DNA of 64,000 nucleotides from a virus. Positions 6,100-29,711 of this stretch are shown here, piece after piece; within the stretch, counting starts at the first letter, position 1; the number at the start of each line of letters is the position of its first letter. The notes below the pieces were generated by a model. The model had not been told where the DNA came from. It did not search any database and worked only from the letters and a program-made list of their open reading frames with translations. A program made the translations under genes and the position numbers. Where the stretch lies: IMG/VR virus record IMGVR_UViG_3300020187_003193. One strand, 5' to 3'.

Positions 6100-6131
6100 T
6101 TGGCTTCCTCACTTATTCTTCGTATATTTAT
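6100..6131 (+). promoter_or_regulatory. Dual promoter: sigma70-like plus overlapping ATATTTAT
   Basis: TTGGCT-N17-TATATT (6100-6128); ATATTTAT at 6124-6131. Confidence 0.65.
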
Positions 6132-6146
6132 ATGTAAAGTATAAGT

Positions 6147-6947
6147 ATGATCAAATTACGACATATAATCTTAGAGCAATCAACCAACCCGAAGGCTCTC
6201 ATTCTTGCTGGTTCTCCTGGAGCCGGCAAGTCTTCGTTTATCGAAGGTGTAAAAGATGCCATCATATTAAACGTTGACGATTACTACATGCGTAATCTAA
6301 AAGATTTAAATGTATCTTTAGATTTAAGAAACGCTAACGCAGAGGACAGAAGTAAAGCAGCTAAAGCAATGGCGGCAGCAAATGCTGAATTCCGACCTAT
6401 GACCCGTGAAATTATCTTAGGTAAAAAGAATTTTATCTTAGACGGTACAGCAGCATCAACAAAACCTACCTTAGCTTTAAAACAACAACTTGAAGAACTC
6501 GGATACGATGTACTAATGGTATATGTATTTGCTTCACTAGAAAAAGCATTAGATAGAAACGATACACGATTTGATCGCTCGGGTGGAAAAGACAGAAGTT
6601 TAGCACCTGCTATTGTACTTCGTACTTGGAACAATGTAACTCAAAATTTTGATTTGTATCAAAAAGAATTTGGAAACAATTTCGTTTCGGTTGTAAACGA
6701 TAAAGCATTGGAAAAAGGTGAACCTATGAGCTCACTAGAATCTCTAGTAGACAAATACATCACACCATACTCTCCAACAGATACAAAACCTAAAACGGAT
6801 AAAGAAAAAGCGAAATCTGCTGCCTCAAAAGCAGAACTCGAAAAACAAATAAACGACTTTGTAAATTCAAACAAAATAGAAGATATCAAAGCAAGTTCTG
6901 TATCTAAAGACGAGGCAAAATCTCGTGTAAATCAATTCTTCTCATGA
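6147..6947 (+). CDS. P-loop kinase (zeta-toxin/AAA_33-like) with capsid-targeting-like leader
   Basis: LAGSPGAGKS Walker A, LNVDD, ILDGT; N-terminus MIKLRHIILE. Confidence 0.8.
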   Translation: MIKLRHIILEQSTNPKALILAGSPGAGKSSFIEGVKDAIILNVDDYYMRNLKDLNVSLDLRNANAEDRSKAAKAMAAANAEFRPMTREIILGKKNFILDGTAASTKPTLALKQQLEELGYDVLMVYVFASLEKALDRNDTRFDRSGGKDRSLAPAIVLRTWNNVTQNFDLYQKEFGNNFVSVVNDKALEKGEPMSSLESLVDKYITPYSPTDTKPKTDKEKAKSAASKAELEKQINDFVNSNKIEDIKASSVSKDEAKSRVNQFFS

Positions 6948-8470
6948 ATCCAGAACAAATAGGTAAGCAAATAGCCGAACGTCTGCTTATGGAGAACTTT
7001 ACAGAAAAAGTATCTCTATACCCAGGAGCATTCAAACCACCCCACAGAGGACACGTTTCAATAGCACTAGATTCATTAGAAACAGATACAGACAAGCTGA
7101 TATTATTCATATCTACTAAAGCTAGGGAAGATGTCGAAGTAGAAGAAGCCCTTAAAGCATGGGAACTATACAAGGAAAGCACACCTGGTTTAGAGAGGAT
7201 GGAAATTGTGCCAACTCCTACTCCGGTTAAAGACGTATACGATTACGTTAAGAACAATCCTACCCATGATATAAAGGCTGTCTTCGGTAAAGGCGAAGAA
7301 GAACGCTACACTTCACTAGCTACAAAATACCCTAACGTTGAAATATTTAACGCAGGTACAGTTGGCAACTACTCAGCCACTGATTTACGTAAAGCAATAC
7401 GTGACAAAAACAAAGAAGTAATAGCTACATTTATTCCAGATGGGGTAAACATAGACGATTTTTTATCTATATTTCAAATACAAGAAAACCTAAACGAAAT
7501 TGGAGATTTATCCCAAGCCCCATATAAATGGTCTTATCTACCAGATAATAGTGATGCACTTAATAAAGAATATAGTTTTACAACAAAAGATTCTAAATAT
7601 ACTGTTGTATTCTATGGTAATGAAGAAGGAAATAATTGGGATTTAGAGTTCCTAGCATCCACAGGCATTGGAGGATCATCAACAAGAACTTTAACTGGTG
7701 GAAATGAACCATTTAAAATAATGTCTACCGTAGTAGATATAGTTAAAGATTTCCTTAAAAAAGCAGATACTCCTATAAAAACTATTTCTTACACCCCTAC
7801 TAAAGGTAAACGAGGAGAAGAAGATGCTAAAGATAACACACGAGCTAAATTATATAAAGCTGTTATCCAAAGACAATTCCCAAAAGCTAAAATATCTGGA
7901 GAAGACGATGTAACAATAGATGTATCTGCATATTCAGGTAATACAAATGAAGAAATTGTAGGTGAAAAAATTGTATGTGATAAATGTGGATGGAAATGGA
8001 AAATAGTAGATGGTGGAGACGATTTGTATATGTGTCATAAATGCGGACACAATAATACCCCACGTAAAAACTACCTACAAGAAGCTAGATACAAAAAATT
8101 CCTAAACGAAGGATGGGACAATTCAAAAGCTAAAGTCATAAACGACTTCTTAGCATATTGTGCCGACTATCTATCTATAACTAGACCTACCATTAAACTG
8201 GTAAATTCGCCAGAGTACACGCAAACCTACCATTCCTTTGGTGGATATATGCCTTCAGAACAAAAGATAATTACTGTTGTACATAACAGAAATATGGCAG
8301 ATATTTTACGTACATTGGCCCACGAAATGGTTCACCATATGCAAAATCTAGATGAACGTTTAACACCTAAATCAGGTGAAGACGGTTCACCAGATGAAAA
8401 CGAAGCAAATTCACTAGCGGGTGTTATAATGAGAGAGTTTGGTAGAAACAACCCACACATATATGAGTAA
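6944..8470 (+). CDS. Multidomain protein: HxGH nucleotidyltransferase + unknown domain + Zn ribbon + HExxH metallopeptidase-like domain
   Basis: YPGAFKPPHRGH; CDKC...CHKC; LAHEMVHHMQ; domains separated by LNE/LQE motifs. Confidence 0.8.
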   Translation: MNPEQIGKQIAERLLMENFTEKVSLYPGAFKPPHRGHVSIALDSLETDTDKLILFISTKAREDVEVEEALKAWELYKESTPGLERMEIVPTPTPVKDVYDYVKNNPTHDIKAVFGKGEEERYTSLATKYPNVEIFNAGTVGNYSATDLRKAIRDKNKEVIATFIPDGVNIDDFLSIFQIQENLNEIGDLSQAPYKWSYLPDNSDALNKEYSFTTKDSKYTVVFYGNEEGNNWDLEFLASTGIGGSSTRTLTGGNEPFKIMSTVVDIVKDFLKKADTPIKTISYTPTKGKRGEEDAKDNTRAKLYKAVIQRQFPKAKISGEDDVTIDVSAYSGNTNEEIVGEKIVCDKCGWKWKIVDGGDDLYMCHKCGHNNTPRKNYLQEARYKKFLNEGWDNSKAKVINDFLAYCADYLSITRPTIKLVNSPEYTQTYHSFGGYMPSEQKIITVVHNRNMADILRTLAHEMVHHMQNLDERLTPKSGEDGSPDENEANSLAGVIMREFGRNNPHIYE

Positions 8471-9008
8471 ATATAGTTTATATAATTTAATGATAGAGGA
8501 CATAAGGAAAGCATACAACGTTTACGTTGATATGGACGGGGTTTTAACAGATTTTGAAAGACGATTTGAACAATTTGCAGGTGTTACACCTGACGAATTC
8601 ATGTCTCAAAAAACAATCGAATTTGGTAAAGACAAAGCAAACGAACAATTTTGGGATTTAATAGACGAGCAAATTGGTGTTCGTTTTTGGGCAGGAATGC
8701 CATGGATGCCTGAAGGAGAAAAACTTTGGAAATATATTAAACCATTCAAACCAACCATTCTGACATCACCTTCCAGAAAGGAATCGTCTAAAATAGGTAA
8801 AGGTGTTTGGATTAAAAGAAACATGTCCGGTACACCATATAAATTTGGGTACAAAGCCTCTGGTAAAGCGAAATATGCTACACCAAATTCAATACTAATA
8901 GACGATAGAGAAGACAATATCGATGCTTGGAAAGCAGCAGGTGGTATTGGTATACTATTCAAATCAACAGAACAAGTTATAAACGAATTAGCAAAAATAG
9001 GGTTATGA
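8463..9008 (+). CDS. HAD-family 5'(3')-deoxyribonucleotidase-like phosphatase
   Basis: DMDGVLTDF motif I, ILTSP, ILIDDR; start moved to ATG 8463, which overlaps the upstream stop. Confidence 0.85.
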   Translation: MSKYSLYNLMIEDIRKAYNVYVDMDGVLTDFERRFEQFAGVTPDEFMSQKTIEFGKDKANEQFWDLIDEQIGVRFWAGMPWMPEGEKLWKYIKPFKPTILTSPSRKESSKIGKGVWIKRNMSGTPYKFGYKASGKAKYATPNSILIDDREDNIDAWKAAGGIGILFKSTEQVINELAKIGL

Positions 9009-9580
9009 GTGAAACTCAATTAAATAGAGAATTTGAGGAAAGAGATATTCAACGTATGCGAAATATCATCAGCGGAAATACTGCTGAAAGAACACGTGTA
9101 CAAGCTGGATACGAAAAACAAAATATAAAACATACAGAGGGTGACGTTTGGGAAGAAAGTGGTAAACAATGGACTATTAAAAACGGTATAAAACAAACCA
9201 TTACCAAACACGATAAAATCAGAGAACTCATTACAATGCCTCTTAAATGTCCATCGTGTGAAAAATCAATGAAACCAACCCCATTAAACAAGAAAATGTG
9301 GGGCGTACATAAAAAATGCTTCGATTGTGTTATCGAAATGGAAACACAATTAAAAATAGAAGGCAAGTACGAACAATACGCGAAAGATTTAATGAACGCA
9401 AATAAAGATGCTTTTGTTAAAGATTACGAGCAAGCAGTAGAAGAATATTCAAATGCTAAAGACGATACATTTATGTCTGAAGCTGGAGATATAGAAAATT
9501 GGAGTGCAAGTAAAGTAAATCCCGAGGTAATTAAAGCCCTCAAAGCAAACATCAAACAATTAAAAGAAACAGAGATATAA
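9005..9580 (+). CDS. Hypothetical protein with CxxC...CxxC zinc finger
   Basis: CPSC...KKCFDC; probable start ATG 9005 overlapping the upstream stop. Confidence 0.7.
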   Translation: MSETQLNREFEERDIQRMRNIISGNTAERTRVQAGYEKQNIKHTEGDVWEESGKQWTIKNGIKQTITKHDKIRELITMPLKCPSCEKSMKPTPLNKKMWGVHKKCFDCVIEMETQLKIEGKYEQYAKDLMNANKDAFVKDYEQAVEEYSNAKDDTFMSEAGDIENWSASKVNPEVIKALKANIKQLKETEI

Positions 9581-9589
9581 TATCTTTAT

Positions 9590-9597
9590 ATATTTAT
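9590..9597 (+). promoter_or_regulatory. ATATTTAT putative late promoter
   Basis: Intergenic motif upstream of ATG 9619. Confidence 0.6.
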
Positions 9598-9618
9598 CGT
9601 CATACAATCCAAAATAAA

Positions 9619-10272
9619 ATGAAAAAGCAAGACTTACGTAACTTAATCAAAGAAAACATATCTGATTGGCTAGCTGAAAGAGCAGCTCAAGACGAAGCAA
9701 ACAGCGGAGATATGGCTTACACCGAGAAAGCACCATTAAAAGAAGAAGCAGATACAATTGAAGACCAAATCGGTGAATTTTTTGTAGTAGAAAAAGCTAC
9801 TAAAAATGACGAAAAACCTGAAGATCTTTATTTTAGTACAGACATATTTTACCTTGTTCAACAAATGAAAGGTGGTTTAGAAAAAAGTGGAATTCACGGT
9901 ATCTATAAATCAGAAGGTAAAGCAAAATCTACAGCATCTAAATTACTTAAAGATAGAGACAATCAAGTAAAAGAAACTTACAAGAAAGGTCAAGCCAAAC
10001 TTAAAGAAATGGAAAGCTCACTTGACGAACTTAAAGGCGCTATCGAAAAAAACATGGCGGAAGCGACAGCTAACCCAACAATGCGTGAAACACTACAAAC
10101 AAAATCAAACAGCTTACTTGAAAAACTTACTCAAGTAGAAGCTATGATTGAAAAACTACGTGGTGGTCTTGAAAAAGAAGGACTTAGATTAGAAAAGAAA
10201 AAACCTTCAAAAGATAAAAAAGAAGACAGCAAAAAAGACGAAAAAGCTGACGACAAGAAAGACGATAAATAA
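9619..10272 (+). CDS. Putative head-internal protein
   Basis: Leader MKKQDLRNLIKE, internal LKE; acidic/basic coiled coil. Confidence 0.65.
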   Translation: MKKQDLRNLIKENISDWLAERAAQDEANSGDMAYTEKAPLKEEADTIEDQIGEFFVVEKATKNDEKPEDLYFSTDIFYLVQQMKGGLEKSGIHGIYKSEGKAKSTASKLLKDRDNQVKETYKKGQAKLKEMESSLDELKGAIEKNMAEATANPTMRETLQTKSNSLLEKLTQVEAMIEKLRGGLEKEGLRLEKKKPSKDKKEDSKKDEKADDKKDDK

Positions 10273-11234
10273 TGGACAAACTAAAGCTCAGATATTTAAT
10301 CCGAGAGGCTATAGAAAACGTTGCAAATATAACAAGTAAGTTTTCTGTAGGCGATAAAGTTACAACTGTTGACGGTGACATGGCTAAAATAACCATGGCA
10401 GAACATCCATTCTACACTGTAGAATTGGAAGCGACAGGTACAACTAAATCCTTTAGTTTCAAAGACTTAGCTCCTTACGAGGAGAAAGAAATAGCAAAAA
10501 CATCGGAAGGCATTACCCTCAACGAAGGCGTAATTGCCTCTCCTGGTTTAGAATTTCACGCTACAAATAAACTACCACTATCCGAATGTGTATATCGTAT
10601 AGGTTCAACATCATACATTCAGTTTTTCGCTGAAGCACGCGAGCTATTCAACGAAGGTGCTATACGAGTAAACGCGGGAGACAGGCATTTACTGCGCGAA
10701 ACAGATATAGGCGAGTATGGTGTGTATGGTGATAGAAAAGTGCCGTTAGACATACCTTTCATTAACGAAGGTGAAGAAGCATTAGGTATTTACGATGATG
10801 GTAGAGGAAATTCCGCTGCAATTGGATGGACACCTGATGGGTATCTAGCTACAGTAGATGGTGAATACGATTTTCAAATCGGACCTGCTAAAACAGTAGA
10901 AGAGCTAATTAAGATGTTAGCTGATGAAGATTTTACAAATAAAATATTTGAAGCCCAATTTAAAGGCAAAGACGTTCCACTAAACAAACCAAAACGTGGT
11001 GGTTCAAAAGCATATTATGTTTACGTTAAAGACGGAGACAAAGTTAAAAAAGTATCTTTCGGCTCTGGTGGTTTAAGAGCAAAAATTAACAACCCTGAAG
11101 CACGTAGAGCATTCGCTGCACGTCACAATTGCGACAAGAAAAAAGACAGAACATCAGCTGGTTACTGGTCGTGTAATTTACCGCGATACGCAAAAGCACT
11201 CGGTTTAGGATCTAACAAAAATACTTTCTGGTAG
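10272..11234 (+). CDS. Putative head-internal modular polyprotein
   Basis: Leader MDKLKLRYLIRE; SH3/KOW-like module; modules split by LNE, INE and IFE; C-terminal KPKRGG...GYWSC module. Confidence 0.7.
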   Translation: MDKLKLRYLIREAIENVANITSKFSVGDKVTTVDGDMAKITMAEHPFYTVELEATGTTKSFSFKDLAPYEEKEIAKTSEGITLNEGVIASPGLEFHATNKLPLSECVYRIGSTSYIQFFAEARELFNEGAIRVNAGDRHLLRETDIGEYGVYGDRKVPLDIPFINEGEEALGIYDDGRGNSAAIGWTPDGYLATVDGEYDFQIGPAKTVEELIKMLADEDFTNKIFEAQFKGKDVPLNKPKRGGSKAYYVYVKDGDKVKKVSFGSGGLRAKINNPEARRAFAARHNCDKKKDRTSAGYWSCNLPRYAKALGLGSNKNTFW

Positions 11235-11235
11235 G

Positions 11236-11490
11236 ATGGCAACATATAGAGATTACGAATACCTTGGATACCACGTCAGACATTTCCCACACGACACAGA
11301 AAGTGTCGAGCTAGTTTGGCACCGAGATAGGAAAGATCGCTATATAACACCAATAGGAGATACAGATTGGCAAATACAATTCGACAACGAGTTGCCCAGG
11401 CCAATAAACGATTGTATCTTTATACCTGAAGGAAAATATCATAGAGTAATAAAAGGCAATGGTTGTCTAAAAATTCTAATCAATGAATAA
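11236..11490 (+). CDS. Small cupin-fold protein
   Basis: LVWHRD...WQIQFD...IFIPEGKYHRVIKG. Confidence 0.7.
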   Translation: MATYRDYEYLGYHVRHFPHDTESVELVWHRDRKDRYITPIGDTDWQIQFDNELPRPINDCIFIPEGKYHRVIKGNGCLKILINE

Positions 11491-12388
11491 AATTAAAATT
11501 GTTAAAAACAAACCAACCGTAAAGGAAAACACACCTGTATCCGTAGGCCTCAACATGGACCAGACAGATGCTGTATATAAAGTCCTAGAAGACAACTTTG
11601 GTGAAGAACATATGAAAGATATGTTCACCTTAGGTAGCTTATCTTTTTACAATATGATGGTTAAAGGAGGTATAGCTGGTGTATTTAACGAAGGAACTAT
11701 AAACGAAGAATCTTATACAGTAGCAGGTAAATCCGTAACCTTAAACAAAGGCCAAAAATCAGATGGAACCGATTGGACTGTTACTTTCCAAAACGGAAAA
11801 GAAACCTCACTATCGGATGTGTTGTCTTTAATTAAACCTTTCCCAAAAGGAATTACAAAAGAAAACCTAAACGAAGACAAAGCAGCTGCTGCTAGATGGT
11901 TTGGTAATTTAAAATCATTTTATTTAAAAGCCTTTAGAGAGTTAAAAGGTGAAGATCAAGCAACATACAAAACACTGATTAAAAATTGGGCTAACGGATT
12001 ATCTGATAATAAAGTAGGTGTTAACGAACAACCAGATGTGCTAAACAAAATAGCAGATATGTTTGATCGCAAATACCCTCACTTATCATTTGACGTTAGA
12101 ACAGACGTAGATCGTATCGATGTTCGTGGTTCACAACAAGATTTATTTAATTTTGGAGACAAATTACATGGTGAAAAAATATTCGACTACGAAGTATTCC
12201 ATATAGATGACGAAGATAGAGGCGAAATTGTCCGTATTATCAAATCAGATAGAATAAACGAAGAAAAACCAGGTTTATGGGCAAACATTCGTGCTAAACA
12301 AGAACGTGGAGAAAAACCTGCACGTAAAGGAAGTAAAGCATATAAAATTGCTAAAAAGGCTGGAGACGAGATCAACAAAGAAAAATAG
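11483..12388 (+). CDS. Putative head-internal modular polyprotein
   Basis: Repeated VKE/FNE/INE/LNE/VNE junctions; C-terminal PGLWANIRAK basic module. Confidence 0.7.
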   Translation: MNKIKIVKNKPTVKENTPVSVGLNMDQTDAVYKVLEDNFGEEHMKDMFTLGSLSFYNMMVKGGIAGVFNEGTINEESYTVAGKSVTLNKGQKSDGTDWTVTFQNGKETSLSDVLSLIKPFPKGITKENLNEDKAAAARWFGNLKSFYLKAFRELKGEDQATYKTLIKNWANGLSDNKVGVNEQPDVLNKIADMFDRKYPHLSFDVRTDVDRIDVRGSQQDLFNFGDKLHGEKIFDYEVFHIDDEDRGEIVRIIKSDRINEEKPGLWANIRAKQERGEKPARKGSKAYKIAKKAGDEINKEK

Positions 12389-12877
12389 ATGAAAAAGTTA
12401 ATATTCATATTCGCAATATTACTTACATCTTGTAGTTCATTACAACTTCAACTAGCTACAATGAACCATGCCAGCGTACAAAACCACTGGCGTCCTAGAA
12501 CAAATACTGGATTCACATATGTTTTACCATCTACTACTCCTTACACTTGGAACAATTTTACCTACAATAGATTCCTCCAACCCGATCCATTCTTCTATAG
12601 TTGGAACTACCCTCTCAATTGGTACTACCCAAACAACCAATGGTACACATTCAATTATAATAATATTGTTCGCCCTAGGCGTGTTGTACGTAGGGTACCT
12701 AATAGACCACAAACTCAACCAAGACCAACAATCAGGAGACCACGAATAACACCTACAACTCGTACACGTACAATGAATACACAACCTAATGTTCAAAGAC
12801 GTCCTGTACAGACACGTCCACAAACACGTGTATCTACATCAAATATAAGGAGAGGCAAAAGTAACATAAAACAATAA
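12389..12877 (+). CDS. Predicted lipoprotein
   Basis: MKKLIFIFAILLTSC signal with lipobox; aromatic-rich middle; Arg/Pro/Thr-rich tail. Confidence 0.7.
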   Translation: MKKLIFIFAILLTSCSSLQLQLATMNHASVQNHWRPRTNTGFTYVLPSTTPYTWNNFTYNRFLQPDPFFYSWNYPLNWYYPNNQWYTFNYNNIVRPRRVVRRVPNRPQTQPRPTIRRPRITPTTRTRTMNTQPNVQRRPVQTRPQTRVSTSNIRRGKSNIKQ

Positions 12878-12884
12878 TATTTAT
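12877..12884 (+). promoter_or_regulatory. ATATTTAT putative late promoter
   Basis: Motif upstream of ATG 12901. Confidence 0.6.
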
Positions 12885-12900
12885 ATCAAAATATCATATA

Positions 12901-13902
12901 ATGGATAACTTCAACCTAAAGAACTTCATTAACGAGAACAATCTCGGCGCATACTCTAGAATGAAAGAAGATACAGTAAGCGAACAATCAGCGTTCGTAT
13001 TAGCAGCAGATGCAGCTAGAGATGCTGGTAAAGATGAATTCGAGTTTCCTGAAGGAAGCGGTAAAATGCATAAAGTCAAATTAAAGCAAGACATTCCTGT
13101 AGAGGAAGGTATGGGTGGAGAAATGGCTGAAATATTAGGTGCTTTTCTTGCCTTAGTTGGCGCTGGAAAAACAGCACTCGAAGCCGTTAAAATCTTAGGA
13201 GACGAGCACGGAGACATATCCATTAGCAGTATCAAAGATGCTATCAAGCAATACAAAGCATCTAAAAAGATAGGTGAAGAATTAAGCGACGAAGAAGCAG
13301 ACAAATTCCACACTAAATTAGACAACCTCGTTCACAAAACATTCGGTCCAAGTAGCGACGAAAAAGAAATGAACGAAGAACTTTCAATGAAAGATATCAC
13401 TTCAGGTCAAAGATCATATCAACAAATGAAGCCCTATTTTATAGCAAAAGTAATAGGATTAAAACCCGAAACAGAACAAAAAGCATCTGAGTTAGTTTTA
13501 AAGAAAAGCAAGGCATTCCCAGGTATGACCCAAGTTATAAAAACAGCCAAAACACCAGAGGAAGTAGAAAATGTAGTATTCTTTGATGGATATCCAGATG
13601 AAGACCAAACTATACGCTTCTCAGGATTGGAATATGAACTATATCAAGTTACACCAAATCCTAAAATTGACAGATTAAAAGAAGAAGCTTCCGGATTAGA
13701 ATTTAAAGTAGGAGATAAAGTAACATATCTAGGACACCCAGGTACTATTACAAATGCTGGAACAGATATAATGGATAGACCTATATATAGTGTATCTTAC
13801 AATAAAGGAACAGGCGATACAAAAGTTACCAACGTTTACAATAAAGGTGGTGAAATTAAGCCTATGAAAGAAAATTCACTTAATCTATCAGACGCTCTTT
13901 AA
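12901..13902 (+). CDS. Putative head-internal modular polyprotein
   Basis: Leader MDNFNLKNFINE; MKE, VSE, VEE, MNE, LKE junctions; FKVGDKV SH3-like module. Confidence 0.7.
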   Translation: MDNFNLKNFINENNLGAYSRMKEDTVSEQSAFVLAADAARDAGKDEFEFPEGSGKMHKVKLKQDIPVEEGMGGEMAEILGAFLALVGAGKTALEAVKILGDEHGDISISSIKDAIKQYKASKKIGEELSDEEADKFHTKLDNLVHKTFGPSSDEKEMNEELSMKDITSGQRSYQQMKPYFIAKVIGLKPETEQKASELVLKKSKAFPGMTQVIKTAKTPEEVENVVFFDGYPDEDQTIRFSGLEYELYQVTPNPKIDRLKEEASGLEFKVGDKVTYLGHPGTITNAGTDIMDRPIYSVSYNKGTGDTKVTNVYNKGGEIKPMKENSLNLSDAL

Positions 13903-15509
13903 TGAACAAAAGTCAATTCATACAACTACTAGAACAAGAGGTAGAGGATTTTATCCAAACCCAAGCCGAAAAGGTCGTTAAATTCGAAGACGATCCAATG
14001 GCATACATACTTCAAAAGTATCCTTCATTACAAGGTACTTTAGAGGATTTAATGACTAGTAGCTTTGAAGACTACATTACAGGCATATATGTAATGGCAC
14101 CTAAGCCAACTACATTCAAAGTCTTACTACACAACGGACAACAATTCTACCTTATATATGCTAGGGATTCTTACATAGCAAAAATATCAGGTAAAAAATA
14201 CTACTTACTTAACCTTGGTGAAGAAGAATACGCTATTAAAGCAATAGCAGATTTACTTACAATGGGTAAACCTCCAGGATCACAAGGGCCTGACGCTGAA
14301 GAAGAAAATACCACTAACGCTGGTGAAGAAACAGAAGAAGTACCAGCTGAAGGAGGCGATGAAGGTGGAGAAGAAGAATTGGCAGAAACTAAAGAAAAAG
14401 TAGAAAAGCCAGTTAAAAAATCCATACTTAAATTTAAGATTTTAAAAGAAGACATAGAAAAAAAAAAGTCTCCTCTTAAATTCCGCATCTTAAAAGAATC
14501 CGATTTCAATGCTTTAACATTCTTCGATTTAGCTAAACGAGGAGGATTTAGATTTCAAATATTAGCAGACAAAATCAAAAATGGTTCGGCATTTGAATTA
14601 GTGGGCGGCGAATCAACACCACTACAATTCATAAACCCTGACCATGCTGAAATATTTGCTATTGGGGATTCAGCTGAAATCAAAAAACTAGCCCCCACCA
14701 ACTCAAATTTATTTAAATTCTTCAAAGACGACGCTGGTAAGGAATATTCTATAAAGGACTTACAGAAAAACGCTGAATTTGGAGGTAGAGGTAAAGGATC
14801 TGGAACAATAGTAGAAGATTACAATCTTAAATTACTTAAAGACCAGATAGCTAAACTAAAAGAAGAAAACAATACTTCATCCATAAATGTTTCTGTAGGA
14901 GGAAAAGTATACAACGATATAGTAGATGCTGAATCACAATTCGGTACCCCTAAATCAGATTTTAACTTAGTAGACAGCAAAGGCAACCCAGTTGTCTTTA
15001 TATCACATAAAAAAGCAGGGGGGAAAGGCGCCTCAGCAAACGATTTCATCAGATGGAGTGGATATACAATGTATAAAAACCACCCTGAAGTAAAGGCATT
15101 TAACGAGGCATTAGCTAAATGGGTAGACGAAAACAACCCTGGTGAAGGTTTACCTAACAAAACACGCTTTATATCTCGTATAGAGGATAAAGAACTTATC
15201 CAAAAACTTATATACGGACCAAAATTCGGTGAAGGGTTTAGCAAAGACAATGTATCTATTATTTTACAAGGTAAAATCGATCTTAGCCCTAAAGGAGACA
15301 ACACATACGAATTAACATCTCAACACGATCAAGTTCCACCTTCAATACCTGAAGGAGAATATTACCCATATCTTACATCAGCATATAGAGCAGATAGAGA
15401 AATGTTCGGTATTAAAAACAACGAAGCTATAGTAATGACTAAAGCACAATCAGGAAAATCGTCAAATGTATACGAACTCCAGAACGGAAAGTTTGTTAAA
15501 GTGAGATAA
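13902..15509 (+). CDS. Two-part protein: unknown N-terminal domain + PD-(D/E)XK-like nuclease domain
   Basis: Acidic linker and ILKE junctions, then TPKSDF...FISHK restriction-endonuclease-like motif. Confidence 0.65.
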   Translation: MNKSQFIQLLEQEVEDFIQTQAEKVVKFEDDPMAYILQKYPSLQGTLEDLMTSSFEDYITGIYVMAPKPTTFKVLLHNGQQFYLIYARDSYIAKISGKKYYLLNLGEEEYAIKAIADLLTMGKPPGSQGPDAEEENTTNAGEETEEVPAEGGDEGGEEELAETKEKVEKPVKKSILKFKILKEDIEKKKSPLKFRILKESDFNALTFFDLAKRGGFRFQILADKIKNGSAFELVGGESTPLQFINPDHAEIFAIGDSAEIKKLAPTNSNLFKFFKDDAGKEYSIKDLQKNAEFGGRGKGSGTIVEDYNLKLLKDQIAKLKEENNTSSINVSVGGKVYNDIVDAESQFGTPKSDFNLVDSKGNPVVFISHKKAGGKGASANDFIRWSGYTMYKNHPEVKAFNEALAKWVDENNPGEGLPNKTRFISRIEDKELIQKLIYGPKFGEGFSKDNVSIILQGKIDLSPKGDNTYELTSQHDQVPPSIPEGEYYPYLTSAYRADREMFGIKNNEAIVMTKAQSGKSSNVYELQNGKFVKVR

Positions 15510-17764: not shown

Positions 17765-18187
17765 ATGAAGAAGAAGGCAGTTATAGTATCCGGATACTTT
17801 AACCCAATTCACAAAGGACATCTTGAGCTCTTCACGAAAGCGAAGGCTCAAGGTGATTACCTTTTTGTAATTGTAAATTCGGATTTGCAAAGAGAATTAA
17901 AGGGTTCAAAAGAATTCCAAGACGAAGTTGAACGTTTATTAATAGTACAAAGCCTCAAAAGGGTAGATGGTGCTATGGTATCAATAGACGAAGACAAAAC
18001 ACAATGCAAAACAATCGAGATGGCTTACAAATTACTATCAGACGAATACGATTTAGCTTTTGCAAATGGTGGTGATCAAAATAACCATTCTATACCAGAG
18101 GCTGGGATATGTGAAGCACTTGGCGTATCTTTAATAGATGGTTTAGGAGATAAAATACAATCTAGTAGTTGGTTATTAAATAAATAA
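17765..18187 (+). CDS. HxGH cytidylyl/adenylyltransferase (TagD/RfaE-II/RibL-like family)
   Basis: IVSGYFNPIHKGH, VIVNSD, ER..IV.SLKRVD, KIQSSS. Confidence 0.85.
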   Translation: MKKKAVIVSGYFNPIHKGHLELFTKAKAQGDYLFVIVNSDLQRELKGSKEFQDEVERLLIVQSLKRVDGAMVSIDEDKTQCKTIEMAYKLLSDEYDLAFANGGDQNNHSIPEAGICEALGVSLIDGLGDKIQSSSWLLNK

Positions 18188-18190
18188 GTT

Positions 18191-18721
18191 ATGAAAATAG
18201 GTTTATGTGGTACAATGAGTGTAGGTAAAACTACATTAGTAAATGCTTTACAGCAATTAGAACAATTTAAAGGATATGAATTTGCTACTGAGCGTAGTAA
18301 ATATTTAAGTGGTTTAGGTATTCCATTGAATACTGATTCTACATTAAAAGGTCAAACAGTATTTTTAGCTGAGCGTTGTGCCGAATTAATTCATGATAAT
18401 ATCATTACAGATAGAACTGTAGTTGATGTAATGGCGTTTACAGAAAATGCTAAATCAATTGATTTTAAAGATAAAGAATATTTTAGTGAATATGCTAGAA
18501 ATTTCTTAGGTGAATATGATTATATATTCTATATTTCACCTGTAGGGATTGATATAGAAGATAATGGTGTTAGAGAAACTGATGCAAATTATAGAATGAC
18601 AATCGATGATTCTATATTACATATATTAAGTAGTTTTGGTCATAGATGTAAAAATGTACATGAATTAAAAGGTACAACTAATGAACGAATTGAGCAAATG
18701 CTCGGGTTTATTCAAGGTTAA
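18191..18721 (+). CDS. P-loop kinase (AAA_28/NadR-kinase-like)
   Basis: GLCGTMSVGKTT, ITDRTVVD, YDYIFY. Confidence 0.8.
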   Translation: MKIGLCGTMSVGKTTLVNALQQLEQFKGYEFATERSKYLSGLGIPLNTDSTLKGQTVFLAERCAELIHDNIITDRTVVDVMAFTENAKSIDFKDKEYFSEYARNFLGEYDYIFYISPVGIDIEDNGVRETDANYRMTIDDSILHILSSFGHRCKNVHELKGTTNERIEQMLGFIQG

Positions 18722-23337: not shown

Positions 23338-24186
23338 ATGAAAATAAAGCATAACAAATACAAGAATACTGGTATTCTATTTGAATTATTAGTAAGGAAG
23401 ATTACTTCGGATACTATGTCTAATAGCAATTCCAAAGCAGCGACTTTAGTTAAGAAATACTTTACTAAAAGTGAGTTAGCTAACGAGAACAAACTCTACC
23501 AAACAATAAACAACTCTATTTCTCTATCAGAAGGTAAAGCAGAATCTGTTATCTCAACGGTATTGGAAATGTCTAGAAGATTAGATAGAGACAAATTGGC
23601 TAAGGAAAAATACAACTTAATTAAGGAGATTAAAGACAATTTCGACCTTAATGATTTTTTCCAAGCCAAAATAAAAAATTACAAGCTATTAGCTTCAACC
23701 TATACTTTATTTGAATCGGTAAATTCTAAAGGCTTCGGAAACCCTGAAACCATTATCAATTCTAAAGTAACCATCCTCGAACACATCACATCATCCCCAG
23801 ACACTAAAATGTCGCTTACACCATTGGTAGAAGAGTTAATGGGATTAGATAAAGGTACTCGTGCTTTAGCATATAAAATTATGTTAGAGAAATACAACGA
23901 GAAATTCGATGGTTTAAATACAGAACAAAAACTTATCTTAAAAGAATATATTAATAGTATCGCAGATGCCCCTAAACTTAAAGAATTTTTAAATACTAAA
24001 TTTAAAAGTATATCTGAGAGTTTAAAGAAAAATATATCTAAAGTAGACGATCCTACTTTGAAAATCAAAATCAAAGAGGTAATAAATCTTATTGACCCTA
24101 TAGTAGAAAGTAAAAAACTAAGAGACGATCACGTTGTCGCTCTTCTACAATATGTTGAGCTTTCTCAAGAAGTAGAATTGATATGA
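23338..24186 (+). CDS. Head-module helical protein
   Basis: 282 aa between portal and protease; KHNKYKNTGILFELLVR N-terminus. Confidence 0.7.
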   Translation: MKIKHNKYKNTGILFELLVRKITSDTMSNSNSKAATLVKKYFTKSELANENKLYQTINNSISLSEGKAESVISTVLEMSRRLDRDKLAKEKYNLIKEIKDNFDLNDFFQAKIKNYKLLASTYTLFESVNSKGFGNPETIINSKVTILEHITSSPDTKMSLTPLVEELMGLDKGTRALAYKIMLEKYNEKFDGLNTEQKLILKEYINSIADAPKLKEFLNTKFKSISESLKKNISKVDDPTLKIKIKEVINLIDPIVESKKLRDDHVVALLQYVELSQEVELI

Positions 24187-24947: not shown

Positions 24948-25084
24948 TGGCAAAAGGCATCGCAGTTGGCAACTACAGAGGTGGTTCTAACAAAAAAAGA
25001 CCGGGTGTTCACTCAAAAAGTAAGTCATCCAAAATTAAAGGTTCTAAGAATTACAAGAAACTGAATGTAGGTCAAGGCAAATAA
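24947..25084 (+). CDS. 45-aa basic (Lys/Ser-rich) peptide missed by the ORF track
   Basis: ATG overlaps the upstream TAA; translates MAKGIAVGNYRGGSNKKRPGVHSKSKSSKIKGSKNYKKLNVGQGK*. Confidence 0.75.
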   Translation: MAKGIAVGNYRGGSNKKRPGVHSKSKSSKIKGSKNYKKLNVGQGK

Positions 25085-26109: not shown

Positions 26110-26727
26110 ATGGCTCAAAAATTACTATTAGAATATTCCGTATTTACCCCTAAAAGATCTCAACTTGTTGAAGGTCTAGACGGGTCAAAAAACATGGTGG
26201 TTGAAGGTATCGTACAACGTGCCGAAGAATTCAACCATAACGGAAGACGCTACCCATACGAGACATTAAAGCGTGAAGTAGACAAATATATGTCTGGCCC
26301 TATCGCTGAAAACAGAGCATTAGGGGAATTAGACCACCCAGAATCCTCTGTAATCAACTTAAAAAACGCATCCCACAACATTAAAGAATTGTGGTGGGAC
26401 GGAAACGATTTACTAGGTAAAATCGAAATATTAACTACTCCATCTGGAAACATATTAAAAGAACTATTCAAAAATAATATTACTGTAGGGATTTCATCTC
26501 GCGGTATGGGTTCTGTTTCACAATTAGGTGAAGGTAGAGTAGAAGTAGAAGACGATTTCGAACTATTATGTTGGGATTTCGTATCTACACCATCAACACA
26601 TGGTGCATTCATGAAACCAACAGGTTTAAATGAAAATCGCACATATACTAAAAACAAATATTCAAAAATTAACTCAATTGTATCTGACATTATATGCACT
26701 CAGTCAGGTATTTGCTGTTTAAGATAA
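26110..26727 (+). CDS. gp21: Prohead core protease (T4 gp21-like)
   Basis: N.NGRRYP, RALGELDHP, GISSRGMGS, DFVSTPST. Confidence 0.95.
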   Translation: MAQKLLLEYSVFTPKRSQLVEGLDGSKNMVVEGIVQRAEEFNHNGRRYPYETLKREVDKYMSGPIAENRALGELDHPESSVINLKNASHNIKELWWDGNDLLGKIEILTTPSGNILKELFKNNITVGISSRGMGSVSQLGEGRVEVEDDFELLCWDFVSTPSTHGAFMKPTGLNENRTYTKNKYSKINSIVSDIICTQSGICCLR

Positions 26728-26913: not shown

Positions 26914-28053
26914 ATGTCAAACACAAAGTTTTTCAACGATGCAATCGCTGAGGCTAAAGCTATCCGTGAAACGGCTCTTGCTAACGCTAAGCTTGCATTA
27001 GAAGAAGCTTTCACTCCACAGATTCAATCTATGCTAGAGAAAAAATTAGCAGAAGAAGCTGATGATATGGATGAAGCAAAAGACATGGACGAAGCAAAGG
27101 AAATGGACGAAGCAAAAGACATGGACGAGGCGAAAAAAGACGTAGATGAAGCAAAATCCGATATGGACGAAGCTAAAAAAGACGTTGATGAAGCCAAAGA
27201 CATGGACGAAGCTAAGGATATGGACGAAGCTAAGGACGTGGAAGAAGGAAAAGACATGGAAGAAGCTAAAAAAGATGTAGACGAAGCTAAAGTAGAGGAA
27301 TCTACTGTAGAAGAAGCTGCTGTCGAAGAAGGCTCTGACATGGAAGAAGGATCAATTGAAGAAATTGACCTAGACGAACTATTAGCTGAATTAGAAGCTG
27401 CAGAAGGCCAAGTTGCTGAAACTGCTGTTGAAGAGGTAGCTGTAGAAGAAACTGCTGTAGAAGAAGCACCTGTAGTTGAAGCGGAAGCTGAAGACGAAGT
27501 AGGTGAAATTACAGTAGATGAGCTTAAAGACATTATCCGTGACGTCCTTGCTGATGTAATGGGTGGTGGAGCTGGAGAAGAAGAAATGGAAGATCTTGGT
27601 GACCTAGAAGGTGGCGAAGAAATGGAAATGGGCGACGAAGAAGCTGAACTTGAATTAGAAGGTAAAAAAGAAGTTGAAGAGAAAAAAGAAGTTGAGGAAG
27701 CTAAGGCTGAATTAAACGAAGCTATTTCTGTAATCAATACTCTAAAATCTGAGCTAAACGAAGTTAACTTACTTAACGCAAAACTTCTTTACGTGAACAA
27801 ATTGTTCCGCAGCAAAACATTAACTGAAGCACAGAAAGTAAAAGTGATCAATGCATTTGATCGTGCTGAATCTGTGAAAGAAGTTAAAAACATCTTTGAA
27901 ACAATCAAAGATTCAGTTACTATTGAAGCTAAAAAGCCAGTAAACGAATCTCGTTCATTTGCTTCTAAAGCTGCTGGAGTAGCACCAAAAACGCAAATTG
28001 TAGAAAGCAACGATTTTGTAGCTAGAATGCAAAAAATTGCTGGAATTATTTAA
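26914..28053 (+). CDS. Prohead scaffold/core protein (T4 gp22-like position)
   Basis: Very acidic; lies between protease and MCP; C-terminal LNEVNLLNAKLLY...RAESVKEVK. Confidence 0.85.
   Translation: MSNTKFFNDAIAEAKAIRETALANAKLALEEAFTPQIQSMLEKKLAEEADDMDEAKDMDEAKEMDEAKDMDEAKKDVDEAKSDMDEAKKDVDEAKDMDEAKDMDEAKDVEEGKDMEEAKKDVDEAKVEESTVEEAAVEEGSDMEEGSIEEIDLDELLAELEAAEGQVAETAVEEVAVEETAVEEAPVVEAEAEDEVGEITVDELKDIIRDVLADVMGGGAGEEEMEDLGDLEGGEEMEMGDEEAELELEGKKEVEEKKEVEEAKAELNEAISVINTLKSELNEVNLLNAKLLYVNKLFRSKTLTEAQKVKVINAFDRAESVKEVKNIFETIKDSVTIEAKKPVNESRSFASKAAGVAPKTQIVESNDFVARMQKIAGII
27064..27300 (+). repeat. Tandem (D/E)(M/V)(D/E)EAK repeats in the scaffold
   Basis: About 13 degenerate 5-6-aa units read directly. 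Confidence 0.9.
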
Positions 28054-28076
28054 ATTAAAAAAACACATTATTTAAA

Positions 28077-29711
28077 ATGTCAAACGTAGTAAATCAATTA
28101 TTAGAAACTGCCAACCCTTATCAGTCTGTACAAAAAGATGCAGCTAGATTAGCAGGGAAATGGGCAAAATCAGGTTTATTAGAAGGAATTTCTAATGACA
28201 CTGACAAAGCTAACATGTCTATCATGTTAGAAAACCAAGCTAAACAGCTTGTAATGGAAGCTAACACAACTGGAACAGGAGCGTCTTTCACTGCTGGAAC
28301 AGGTGAGCAATACGCTGCAGTAGCTTTACCATTAGTAAGAAAGGTATTCGGACAAATCGCTGCTAAAGAATTCGTTTCTGTACAGCCAATGTCTTTACCT
28401 GCTGGATTAGTATTTTACTTAGATTTCCAATATGGAACTACTAAGAAGCCATTCACTTCAGGAGATTCAATGTACGGAACTCCATCTGAAAACTTTGGTA
28501 ACCAAGCTGCAGGTGGATTATACGGTGCTGGAAGATTTGGTTACTCTGTTAATGAACACACTGCTTCTGTTACTGGTACGCCTGCAACGGCATCTTGGGC
28601 TGATGTAAACTTTACTAGCGAACTATCAGCTTCTGCGGCTACAGGTTCATTGAAAAGCATCACAATTACTTCTGCTTCTATTTCTGCTAATTTAGATGGA
28701 GATGCTGTTCGTTCATTTGTAGTATCTTCTGGTTCTATACTAGAAACTCTTCAATTGCCTGCATTTACAAGTCAAGCTGCATCAGGAGATGTTACTTTTA
28801 TATTTGATAACTTTGAAGGAAATGATTCAAGAATTCAAACTGGTAGTCAAACTTTAAATGTTACTTATTCTAAGAAAACTGCTGATAATGCACGTGGTGA
28901 TTTCGAAGATGGTTCAACATTAGCAACTACTGATCCGTCAAGAACTGCCATTTCTATCCCAGAAATCGATGTTCAAATGAGATCTGAAACTATTGCTGCT
29001 AAAACAAGAAAATTGAAAGCACAATGGACACCAGAATTCTCTCAGGATCTTAACGCGTTCCATTCAATCGACGCTGAGGCTGAATTAACTTCAATCTTAT
29101 CAGAATACATTTCTTTAGAAATCGATTTAGAGATCTTAGATATGTTGATTGAAAACGCTCCAACAACTGAAGTATGGTCTGCGAAAGTAGGAAACCAACT
29201 TAACGCTGGTGGAACTGGATTCGATTCTAACACATCTGGTGTATACTATACTCAAATGAGCTGGTTCCAAACTCTTGGAATTAAATTACAAAAAGTATCT
29301 AACATCATTCACCAAAGAACATTAAGAGGTGGAGCTAACTTTATGGTAGTTTCTCCAACTGTAGCAACTATCTTGGAATCAATTCCTGGATTCGCTGCTG
29401 ATACTGATGGTGATGTAACTAAAGCTTCTTACGCTTTTGGTGTACAGAAAATCGGTGCTTTAAACAGCCGTTACAAAGTGTACAAGAACCCATATATGAC
29501 TGAAAACACCATTTTAATGGGCTTCAGAGGTAACCAATTCTTAGAATCAGGTGCTGTATATGCTCCATATGTACCACTTATCATGACTCCATTAGTGTAC
29601 GATCCAAATACCTTCACTCCAAGAAAAGGTATCATGACACGTTACGCTAAGAAAATGGTAAGACCAGAATTCTACGGAAAAGTGTTCGTATCTGACTTAA
29701 ACGTAATCTAA
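28077..29711 (+). CDS. gp23: Major capsid protein (T4 gp23-like)
   Basis: KW..SGLLEG, LPLVR.VF, SVQPM..P.GLVFYLDF, AKTRKLKAQWTPE.SQDL.A.H, YAPYVPL, TRY. Confidence 0.97.
   Translation: MSNVVNQLLETANPYQSVQKDAARLAGKWAKSGLLEGISNDTDKANMSIMLENQAKQLVMEANTTGTGASFTAGTGEQYAAVALPLVRKVFGQIAAKEFVSVQPMSLPAGLVFYLDFQYGTTKKPFTSGDSMYGTPSENFGNQAAGGLYGAGRFGYSVNEHTASVTGTPATASWADVNFTSELSASAATGSLKSITITSASISANLDGDAVRSFVVSSGSILETLQLPAFTSQAASGDVTFIFDNFEGNDSRIQTGSQTLNVTYSKKTADNARGDFEDGSTLATTDPSRTAISIPEIDVQMRSETIAAKTRKLKAQWTPEFSQDLNAFHSIDAEAELTSILSEYISLEIDLEILDMLIENAPTTEVWSAKVGNQLNAGGTGFDSNTSGVYYTQMSWFQTLGIKLQKVSNIIHQRTLRGGANFMVVSPTVATILESIPGFAADTDGDVTKASYAFGVQKIGALNSRYKVYKNPYMTENTILMGFRGNQFLESGAVYAPYVPLIMTPLVYDPNTFTPRKGIMTRYAKKMVRPEFYGKVFVSDLNVI

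What the first reader, a model, noticed from the sequence alone, without database searches (positions are those of the whole stretch)
6147..15509. Cassette of head-packaged polyproteins with T4-like capsid-targeting leaders and protease junctions
Seen: many ORFs begin with a 10-17-aa leader ending in [ILMV]-x-E: MIKLRHIILE, ...RLLME, MSKYSLYNLMIE, MKKQDLRNLIKE, MDKLKLRYLIRE, ...PTVKE, MDNFNLKNFINE, MNKSQFIQLLE; ORFs 18748 and 24183 have looser E-ending leaders. Internally they are strings of unrelated 30-120-aa modules joined by LNE/INE/LKE/VKE. The primase, exonuclease and FAD enzyme lack such leaders. Known: the T4 gp21 protease cuts after (L/I)-x-E, and T4 internal proteins carry the MKTYQEFIAE capsid-targeting sequence. 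Inference: this is a mix-and-match library of cargo domains packaged in the head, cut apart by the gp21 homolog (26110) and injected with the DNA, for example as anti-defence or host-takeover effectors.
Basis: partly seen in the sequence, partly recalled or inferred. Interest (0 to 1): 0.82.

Follow-up and report, generated by a model that had tools for sequence, protein, structure and literature searches.

The report
Capsid-addressed, protease-jointed phage cargo proteins
A marine T4-like phage of Flavobacteria puts a T4-style "load me into the head" tag on eight unrelated enzymes and multi-domain chains, and it joins the domains at the cutting motif of its own head protease. They are therefore probably packed into the capsid and cut apart there, but no cut or packaging has been measured.

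Summary
Eight of the 11 ORFs in 6147-15509 start with a 10-17-residue leader ending hydrophobic-x-Glu. The leader is kept in all or nearly all orthologues but differs at DNA level. Nine of 11 ORFs match a loose pattern, against 2.25 expected, and 6 of 40 other genes do.

The internal motif is not over-represented overall (z 1.6). It does sit where modules are swapped, inserted, fused or split among more than 1,200 relatives. Homology ends exactly on the Glu 5.6 times more often than at random positions. The junctions fall in low-confidence linkers of AlphaFold models.

The same motif is conserved at T4-equivalent places in the capsid protein, the scaffold and the S77 (gp21-type) protease. A late-promoter-like motif shared with head and tail genes precedes the cassette.

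Best reading (0.68): T4-type capsid targeting plus prohead-protease processing, extended to enzyme polyproteins. The modules include a kinase, an NMNAT/PPAT-like transferase, a zincin-like module, a 5'-nucleotidase and a restriction-enzyme-like module. Relatives add SOD and GNAT modules.

Packaging, cleavage and injection are inferred, not shown. This scan has already found the same kind of system on other DNA. This case adds a cultured relative, Flavobacterium phage immuto, with the same leaders, which makes it testable.

The parts
6125..6133 (+). Late-promoter-like motif ATATTTATA, 22 nt before the first cassette gene
   Evidence: The window has 17 copies of TATTTATA, all on the + strand and all intergenic, most 11-26 nt before head and tail genes. 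The motif is conserved before the kinase gene in relatives.
6147..6947 (+). Cargo 1: 10-aa leader (6147-6176), then a P-loop kinase (Zeta_toxin/AAA_33-like) with a Lys/Glu-rich tail
   Evidence: Pfam Zeta_toxin 7e-15 and AAA_33 7e-11. The leader is kept in 15/15 distinct orthologue N-termini.
6944..8470 (+). Cargo 2, a polyprotein: 17-aa leader (cut after Glu17, nt 6994); HxGH adenylyltransferase; LNE (Glu185, nt 7498); DUF6934-like module; NEE/VGE (nt 7954-7966); Zn ribbon; LQE (Glu380, nt 8083); leader-like helix; LNE (Glu389, nt 8110); HExxH zincin-like module
   Evidence: The modules are present, absent or reordered in relatives. In the AlphaFold model the low-pLDDT linkers 179-189, 333-340 and 374-391 hold the junctions. 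The NMNAT/NaMNAT/PPAT fold is matched at TM about 0.6-0.7.
8463..9008 (+). Cargo 3: 12-aa leader (8463-8498), then an NT5C-type 5'(3')-deoxyribonucleotidase (HAD fold)
   Evidence: PHROG 2643 2e-26 and Pfam NT5C. It stands alone here but is the C-terminal module of the polyprotein in seven relatives, where an internal helix ending x-x-E replaces the leader.
9005..9580 (+). Not a member: a Zn-ribbon protein, conserved in relatives, without a conserved leader
   Evidence: The motif is kept in only 7/14 orthologue N-termini.
9619..10272 (+). Cargo 4: 12-aa leader, then a coiled-coil protein with a Lys/Asp-rich tail and many conserved x-x-E sites
   Evidence: Leader kept in 7/7. Ten of 12 sites are kept in at least 5 of 6 homologues.
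10272..11234 (+). Cargo 5: 12-aa leader; SH3-like module; LNE (Glu85, nt 10526); a module that stands alone behind its own leader in phage immuto; a basic C-terminal module (PHROG 7595)
   Evidence: Immuto gp099 is a short leader plus the module that follows LNE here. PHROG 7595 1e-16.
11236..11490 (+). Not a member in this phage: an 84-aa ORF without a leader
   Evidence: Two relatives have a longer form with a leader-like start.
11483..12388 (+). Cargo 6: 15-aa leader (VKE), then modules joined at LNE (nt 11875), VNE (nt 12028) and INE (nt 12262)
   Evidence: The module after VNE begins a separate leader-bearing ORF in locus L068. Site list.
12389..12877 (+). Not a member: a predicted lipoprotein (signal peptide plus Cys) with a Pro/Arg/Thr-rich tail
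   Evidence: It holds the same position in relatives.
12878..12886 (+). Second late-promoter-like motif, 23 nt before ORF 12901
12901..13902 (+). Cargo 7: 12-aa leader (INE), then several modules and a C-terminal SH3-like module
   Evidence: Leader kept in 3/3. Its N-terminal modules recur inside immuto gp079 after LNE.
13902..15509 (+). Cargo 8: 11-aa leader; small alpha/beta domain (31-128); acidic disordered linker with two LKE sites (Glu183, nt 14450; Glu199, nt 14498); a 330-aa restriction-endonuclease-like domain
   Evidence: AlphaFold: 122-199 disordered, 204-535 confident. Weak matches to HinP1I (Z 5.6), MspI and HhaI. K351, D353, S368 and K370 are invariant. The 377-aa relatives have a different leader and small module, then VNE or INE before the same domain. 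The domain is leaderless and stands alone in phages DLP6, phiM12 and S-CAM9.
26110..26727 (+). Prohead protease (T4 gp21 family), the presumed cutting enzyme
   Evidence: Pfam Peptidase_S77 1e-31. T4 gp21 5JBL 9e-19. All 63 relatives keep an N-terminal L-L-x-E and a C-terminal G-L-(N/S)-E.
26914..29711 (+). Scaffold (26914-28053) and major capsid protein (28077-29711), which carry the same motif
   Evidence: Scaffold: 38 sites vs 20 expected. Capsid protein: four sites in the first ~60 residues, conserved in 66 distinct relatives, the last one 22-28 residues before the Gp23 fold begins.

Best explanation
The cassette encodes head cargo of a distant T4-like phage.

Proposed mechanism (inferred):
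1. The genes are transcribed with the late (virion) genes.
2. Each product carries an N-terminal amphipathic helix of 10-17 residues. By analogy with the T4 capsid-targeting sequence, this helix binds the scaffolding core, so the protein is built into the prohead.
3. The gp21-type prohead protease then cuts after Glu in (L/I/V/M/F)-x-E. This removes the leader and separates multi-domain chains at their joints.
4. Joints often consist of the C-terminal x-x-E of one module followed by a short leader-like helix and the x-x-E of the next module. This is what remains when leader-bearing genes fuse.
5. The freed enzymes stay in the head with the DNA and most likely enter the cell with it.

Shown here: the leaders, their conservation at protein level but not at DNA level, the placement of the motif at exchange and fusion points and in predicted linkers, the same motif in head proteins, the protease family, and the shared promoter-like motif.

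Inferred only: core binding, cleavage, retention in the virion, ejection, and what the enzymes do in the host.
For: - Leader enrichment and conservation.
- Protein-level rather than DNA-level conservation.
- Module starts are preceded by the motif in 25/28 contexts across five module families.
- NT5C, the NTase and three other modules switch between stand-alone with a leader and internal after x-x-E.
- A GNAT module is inserted exactly between two sites, and an SOD module is flanked by sites.
- Homology ends exactly on the Glu in 10.6% of breakpoints vs 1.9% at random, and homology starts 3-12 residues before a site.
- All junctions lie in low-pLDDT linkers, and the leaders are predicted to be helical.
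- The protease is S77/gp21.
- The motif is conserved in the capsid protein prodomain, the scaffold and both ends of the protease in 63-66 relatives.
- The late-promoter-like motif is shared with head and tail genes.
- T4 precedent: gp21 cuts after L/I-x-E; a 10-residue targeting sequence with positions 4 and 7 for targeting and 8 and 10 for processing; gp21 has its own LIE-9 (PMC9026906). T4 internal proteins are diverse with only the targeting sequence conserved (PMC3012670).
Against: - There is no virion proteome or N-terminal data for this phage or for immuto.
- The motif is short, and its bulk frequency in the cassette equals the composition expectation.
- One junction in the window's own ORF 6944 is non-canonical (N-E-E).
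- Several cargo candidates are ordinary cytoplasmic enzymes that could work without being packaged.
- The nuclease-like domain is leaderless and sits among early genes in other T4-like phages.
- In immuto, leader-like starts also occur on a few genes far from the head genes.
- The breakpoint statistics use related sequences, not independent events.
Confidence: 0.68

Rival explanations
1. The proteins are substrates of the prohead protease and enter the prohead core, but they are auxiliary core or scaffold components. They are chopped up and expelled before DNA packaging, as T4 gp22, gp67 and gp68 are. They are not cargo delivered to the next cell.
For: The motif-rich coiled-coil ORF 9619 looks scaffold-like, with 10 of 12 sites kept in at least 5 of 6 homologues. 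T4 core proteins are cut into fragments that leave the head (PMC9026906).
Against: Most members are folded enzymes: a kinase, an adenylyltransferase, a HAD nucleotidase, and SOD and GNAT in relatives. Their sites lie between domains, not within them. This fits release of intact domains rather than destruction.
Confidence: 0.12
2. These are polyvalent proteins in the sense of Iyer et al. 2017. The chains are processed by their own embedded HExxH zincin-like module or by a host protease, before or after delivery. The N-terminal helix would have another role, such as oligomerisation, membrane binding or turnover.
For: ORF 6944 and many relatives carry an HExxH module. Polyvalent proteins with zincin peptidases are predicted to process themselves (PMC5512222).
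Against: Cassette members without any zincin module have the same leaders and joints. The joint motif is the one conserved in the capsid protein, the scaffold and the protease itself. The zincin module is only one swappable bead, absent from many family members.
Confidence: 0.1
3. No proteolysis takes place. The x-x-E joints are scars or hotspots of recombination in an AT-rich genome (core TAAAnGAA), and the N-terminal similarity reflects translation-initiation or mRNA constraints.
For: The junction codons share an A/T-rich core. The bulk motif frequency is as expected from composition.
Against: Codons at the joints and in the leaders vary synonymously and conservatively: TTA/CTA/GTT/ATA, AAT/AAC/AAA, GAA/GAG. 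The Glu and the hydrophobic residue at -2 are invariant over deep divergence. The same peptide motif recurs in head proteins at T4-equivalent sites. The joints coincide with structural linkers.
Confidence: 0.07

Closest known systems
Phage T4 internal proteins IPI, IPII, IPIII and Alt: capsid-targeting sequence plus gp21 processing
   Same: A short N-terminal propeptide (10 residues in T4, 10-17 here) ending hydrophobic-x-Glu, with hydrophobic residues at -6 and -3 in five of the eight leaders. A gp21-family protease, a T4-type portal, capsid protein and scaffold. Cargo that is unrelated apart from the leader and varies between related phages. Late expression.
   Different: The T4 internal proteins are small, basic, single-module proteins. 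Alt is one enzyme trimmed at both ends. Here the cargo is mostly enzymes and chains of 2-6 modules with protease-type sites at every joint. Modules are exchanged, fused and split at those sites. The host is a marine flavobacterium and the phage is only about 30-35% identical to T4-like cyanophages in TerL. Nothing has been measured.
Head, inner-body and ejection proteins of giant phages phiKZ, 201phi2-1 and SPN3US, processed by a diverged gp21-like protease
   Same: Many head proteins are cut after Glu at a three-residue motif. Propeptides act as targeting signals. Some proteins are cut at several sites. The cargo is ejected (PMC9026906, PMC5694885, PMC10052503).
   Different: The motif there is (S/A/G)-x-E. 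The cargo is mostly paralogous structural or inner-body proteins and virion RNA polymerase subunits, not beads-on-a-string enzyme chains with shuffled modules.
Polyvalent proteins of phages and conjugative elements (Iyer, Burroughs, Anand, de Souza, Aravind 2017, PMC5512222)
   Same: Several unrelated effector-type domains in one polypeptide. They are encoded by phages, predicted to be packaged and delivered with the DNA, include a zincin-like peptidase module, and show rapid domain shuffling.
   Different: Those proteins have no T4-type leader and no defined joint motif. Processing is proposed to be by embedded peptidases. Their hallmark domains (MuF, ART, SNF2, methylase, ParB) were not seen here.

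Membership tests
T4-type capsid-targeted internal proteins (targeting sequence plus gp21) | N-terminal propeptide of about 10 residues ending L/I-x-E, with hydrophobic targeting positions | tested here: met
   Eight ORFs have conserved leaders of 10-17 residues. The strict -6/-3/-2/Glu pattern is found in 5/11 cassette ORFs vs 0/40 other genes.
T4-type capsid-targeted internal proteins (targeting sequence plus gp21) | The phage encodes a gp21-family (S77) prohead protease and a T4-type head module | tested here: met
   Peptidase_S77 1e-31, Portal_T4 8e-68, Gp23 6e-77. T4 gp21 5JBL 9e-19.
T4-type capsid-targeted internal proteins (targeting sequence plus gp21) | The protease of this lineage cuts after hydrophobic-x-Glu | tested here: inconclusive
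   Indirect evidence only. The motif is conserved in the capsid protein prodomain, the scaffold and both protease termini in 63-66 relatives. No cleavage data exist.
T4-type capsid-targeted internal proteins (targeting sequence plus gp21) | The protein is present in the prohead core and the mature virion, with the leader removed | not testable with these tools
   The library searches for this phage lineage and for targeted cargo returned no virion proteome of it or of immuto.
T4-type capsid-targeted internal proteins (targeting sequence plus gp21) | The protein is ejected into the host with the DNA | not testable with these tools
   Requires an experiment.
T4-type capsid-targeted internal proteins (targeting sequence plus gp21) | Small, basic, single-module proteins | tested here: not met
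   Members are 181-535 residues long, mostly enzymes, and several are multi-module. This is why I file the finding as a variant, not a member.
Polyvalent proteins (Iyer et al. 2017) | Two or more unrelated effector or enzyme domains in one phage-encoded polypeptide with shuffled architectures | tested here: met
   The ORF 6944 family ranges from 302 to 863 residues in the database search, and up to 941 in the loci. It contains NTase, DUF6934-like, Zn-ribbon, two HExxH types, NT5C, SOD and GNAT modules in varied order.
Polyvalent proteins (Iyer et al. 2017) | Hallmark domains (MuF, ART, SNF2 helicase, methylase, ParB) and a zincin peptidase | tested here: inconclusive
   Only an HExxH module with weak DUF3920 similarity (E 0.003) was seen. 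No hallmark domain appeared in the Pfam scans of 20 proteins.
phiKZ-type processed head and ejection proteins | Cleavage motif (S/A/G)-x-E | tested here: not met
   The residue at -2 is L, I, V, M or F at the leaders and joints.

The most novel reading that the evidence does not exclude
Protease-jointed polyproteins are a general but undescribed way in which T4-like phages of the ocean load a swappable set of ready-made enzymes into the capsid. The set includes NAD and nucleotide enzymes, a nuclease, superoxide dismutase and an acetyltransferase. The first moments of infection would then be run by delivered enzymes rather than by new gene expression. Any domain could become cargo simply by landing between two x-x-E sites.
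Probability: 0.4. Interest if true: 0.8.

Novelty: new variant of a known kind. Interest (0 to 1): 0.62.

Why it matters
If this reading is right, the T4 capsid-targeting principle is not a T-even curiosity. It would be a widespread plug-in delivery system in abundant marine phages: the ORF 6944 family alone has more than 1,200 members. Its grammar (leader, domain, x-x-E joint) can be read from sequence.

That grammar would allow virion cargo to be predicted from metagenomes. It would point to pre-made enzymes, such as an NMNAT-like transferase, a nucleotidase, a nuclease, SOD and GNAT, as early-infection tools. It would also offer natural rules for loading foreign proteins into phage heads.

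The cultured relative immuto has the same leaders, so one virion proteomics experiment could test the whole idea.

Tried and rejected
- A whole genome for the window is not held.
- A first, naive test of BLAST breakpoints over all ORFs of 81 loci showed no enrichment (160 vs 162.3). It was swamped by collagen-like tail-fibre repeats and fragmented alignments.
- An automated stand-alone vs internal test gave 82/171 vs 20.6 expected. It was inflated by truncated ORF calls of conserved genes, so I used only hand-checked cases.
- The generic sigma-70 promoter scan was uninformative: 48 sites vs 54 expected.
- PDB sequence searches gave nothing for the kinase, and only E about 0.1 for the NTase.
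- Foldseek gave nothing for ORF 13902. The wide structural search gave only weak matches to restriction enzymes (Z 4.4-5.6) and frataxin-like folds (Z about 6), so the nuclease assignment remains tentative.
- ORF 9005 was dropped as a member because its motif is not conserved.
- The idea that the leaders are a DNA-level repeat or recombination box was rejected because of synonymous variation.
- Searches of the paper library found no description of protease-jointed cargo polyproteins in T4-like phages. The library is incomplete.
Full report
WHAT THE WINDOW IS

All genes lie on the + strand. The order is:
- tail-fibre-like genes, primase (3735) and exonuclease (4661)
- the cassette (6147-15509)
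- an FAD enzyme (15643)
- a cytidylyltransferase-like gene and a P-loop gene (17765, 18191)
- large terminase (19774) and portal (21383)
- three core-like genes
- prohead protease (26110), scaffold (26914) and major capsid protein (28077)
- tail genes.

Pfam gives Portal_T4 (8e-68), Peptidase_S77 (1e-31) and Gp23 (6e-77). The protease matches the T4 gp21 structure 5JBL at 9e-19. The nearest isolate is Flavobacterium phage vB_FspM_immuto (TerL 61% identical). T4-like cyanophages are at about 31-35%. Immuto has the same gene order. The protein database places the window's proteins on contigs of up to 183 kb.

THE LEADERS ARE REAL

- A loose rule ([LIVMF]xE ending at residue 8-18) is met by 9/11 cassette ORFs, 5/6 head-module ORFs and 6/40 other genes (Fisher 7e-5). 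Shuffled cassette proteins give 2.25 on average and never 9 in 2000 trials.
- A stricter rule copied from the T4 targeting sequence (hydrophobic at -6, -3 and -2, then Glu) is met by 5/11 cassette ORFs and 0/40 other genes.
- In 80 related viral contigs fetched through the exonuclease gene, the Glu and the hydrophobic residue two places before it are kept in every or almost every orthologue. The counts are kinase 15/15, NTase 11/11, NT5C 8/8, the 9619 family 7/7, the 10272 family 5/5 and the 12901 family 3/3.
- In the 120 best database homologues of ORF 6944, all 120 keep the leader, with Glu17 invariant while Glu12 varies.
- ORF 9005 keeps its motif in only 7/14, so I do not count it.
- The leaders are 45% identical at DNA level and use different Leu and Glu codons, so the constraint is on the peptide.
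- Immuto has the same kind of leader on many non-homologous ORFs. The strict pattern is found in 21 of 210 ORFs, 10 of them in the 102-119 kb cassette region.

THE INTERNAL JOINTS

The bulk count does not support the claim. Beyond residue 20, the cassette has 70 [LIVMF]xE against 59.5 expected (z 1.6), no more than other genes (z 2.4). Only the post-hoc [LIVM][NK]E pattern is enriched, 21 vs 8.3.

The position-specific evidence is strong.
- The ORF 6944 family ranges from 321 to 941 residues in the loci and from 302 to 863 in the database. Its members have the same N-terminal transferase followed by different sets and orders of modules.
- I looked at five module families: Zn ribbon, DUF6934-like, two HExxH types, and the helix that precedes NT5C. 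In 25 of 28 distinct contexts the residues just before the conserved module start are hydrophobic-x-Glu, mostly LNE, LKE or VKE. This holds whichever module lies upstream.
- NT5C stands alone behind a leader in the window, in four close relatives and in immuto. In seven other relatives it is the last module of the polyprotein. There an internal helix ending x-x-E lies where the leader would be, in 7 of 7 cases.
- In immuto the transferase is internal, behind such a helix. Immuto gp099 is a short leader plus the module that follows LNE in ORF 10272. The N-terminal part of ORF 13902 recurs inside immuto gp079.
- One homologue has a GNAT domain inserted exactly between two sites that are adjacent in another homologue. 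A third carries an Fe/Mn superoxide dismutase (Pfam 2e-30) flanked by sites.
- Among 130 family members, alignments that stop at a rearrangement end exactly on the Glu in 10.6% of distinct contexts, against 1.9% at random positions in the same proteins. Alignments that start at a rearrangement begin 3-12 residues before a site. A short leader-like peptide therefore travels with the downstream module.
- These contexts are related sequences, so the numbers describe a pattern, not independent events.
- Junction codons vary: TTA/CTA/GTT/ATA, AAT/AAC/AAA, GAA/GAG.

STRUCTURE PREDICTIONS

ORF 6944, with 27 aligned sequences, gives pLDDT 74 and pTM 0.38, which is typical of beads on a string. The segments below pLDDT 50 include 179-189, 333-340 and 374-391, and these hold the joints at Glu185, Glu337, Glu380 and Glu389. 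The leader is a helix, residues 3-19.

ORF 13902 has a helical start, a small domain (31-128), a disordered acidic stretch (122-199) that contains both LKE sites, and a confident domain from 204 onwards.

HEAD PROTEINS SPEAK THE SAME LANGUAGE

- The scaffold has 38 sites against 20 expected.
- In 66 distinct relatives, the capsid protein keeps four sites in its first ~60 residues. The last is 22-28 residues before the conserved start of the Gp23 fold, where T4 gp23 is cut.
- All 63 related proteases keep an N-terminal L-L-x-E, as T4 gp21 has its LIE-9. They also keep a C-terminal G-L-(N/S)-E that aligns with the C-terminal region of T4 gp21 (PMC9026906).
- This is indirect evidence that the protease of this lineage has T4-like specificity. 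G-L-N-E is also one of the cargo joints.

TIMING

TATTTATA (mostly ATATTTATA) occurs 17 times on the + strand. Every copy is intergenic, and most lie 11-26 nt before head and tail genes. It also lies before ORF 6147 and ORF 12901. It is conserved before the kinase gene in divergent relatives, and before head, tail and leader-bearing genes in immuto. I read it as a late promoter by analogy with T4's TATAAATA. That is an inference.

WHAT THE CARGO IS

- A Zeta_toxin/AAA_33-type kinase.
- An HxGH adenylyltransferase with an NMNAT/NaMNAT/PPAT fold, followed by a DUF6934-like module, a Zn ribbon and an HExxH module.
- An NT5C nucleotidase.
- A coiled-coil protein.
- Three chains of small modules with basic tails.
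- A domain with weak similarity to the HinP1I, MspI and HhaI restriction enzymes and an invariant K, D...S-x-K set. This domain is a leaderless stand-alone protein in phages DLP6, phiM12 and S-CAM9.

The functions in the host are unknown.

MECHANISM AND RIVALS

The best reading is T4-type capsid targeting plus gp21-type processing, extended to polyproteins (0.68). The rivals are:
- transient core components that are degraded and expelled (0.12)
- polyvalent proteins cut by their own zincin or by a host enzyme (0.10)
- recombination scars without any proteolysis (0.07).

COMPARISON WITH WHAT IS KNOWN

T4 internal proteins are diverse, with only the targeting sequence conserved (PMC3012670). Reviews already suggest the sequence is an evolutionary device for loading varied proteins (PMC9026906). 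Giant phages cut many head proteins after Glu (same review). Polyvalent proteins are multi-domain packaged effectors (PMC5512222).

What I did not find described is the combination: a T4-type leader, enzyme chains jointed by the head-protease motif, and module exchange, fusion and fission at those joints. I therefore file this as a new variant of a known kind.

EARLIER SCAN RESULTS

This scan has already reported the same kind of system in other uncultured T4-like phages. First readers also noted parts of this cassette. Those notes agree with my reading but are not independent evidence. What this case adds:
- a cultured relative with the same leaders
- clean fusion and fission examples
- SOD and GNAT beads
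- the conserved sites in 60-odd related head proteins.

Noticed in passing
window, 17 sites, e.g. 6125, 12878, 15518, 18722, 23312, 25085, 29771, 31906, 33409, 55668, 57748, 59383: TATTTATA (mostly ATATTTATA) occurs only on the + strand and only between genes, usually 11-26 nt before a start codon. It is a candidate late promoter of this phage lineage. Immuto has 23 copies on the + strand.
   Followed up: partly
L051:11048-13762 (the same arrangement in L058): A GIY-YIG homing-endonuclease ORF sits between a 384-aa N-terminal piece and a 243-aa C-terminal piece of the polyprotein gene. The gene is one 817-aa ORF in L056. The pieces match residues 1-383 and 638-817.
   Followed up: partly
P0053 (855 aa) and P0086 (558 aa), homologues of window 6944-8470: Members of the polyprotein family carry an Fe/Mn superoxide dismutase or a GNAT acetyltransferase as an extra bead between x-x-E sites.
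   Followed up: partly
window 12389-12877: A predicted lipoprotein with a Pro/Arg/Thr/Asn-rich tail lies inside the cassette. It holds the same position in relatives L002, L030 and L036. Its function is unknown.
   Followed up: no
window 17765-18721: A cytidylyltransferase-like ORF (Pfam 6e-12) lies directly before a P-loop ORF. Neither has a leader. This is a second transferase-plus-kinase pair besides the leader-tagged pair at 6147 and 6944.
   Followed up: no
window 31932-32336 and immuto gp062: A 134-aa late gene after PhoH starts with a leader-like peptide ending L-I-E. Immuto's version ends I-R-E and fits the strict pattern. It may be a further protease substrate outside the cassette.
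   Followed up: no
window 24183-24947: A leader ending K-Q-E is followed at once by a copy of the stretch that follows the last capsid-protein site (T-T-G-T-G-A-S-F...). Immuto gp072 has the same arrangement.
   Followed up: partly
L056:17946-19895 and L058:18314-20449: Three tandem paralogues share an identical 9-aa leader and a conserved first 30 residues, then diverge. This is a local expansion of leader-bearing genes.
   Followed up: no
immuto record 1803-2318, 24569-24994, 81525-81944: ORFs with strict-pattern leaders also lie far from the head genes, next to the DNA polymerase, among early genes, and next to baseplate genes.
   Followed up: no
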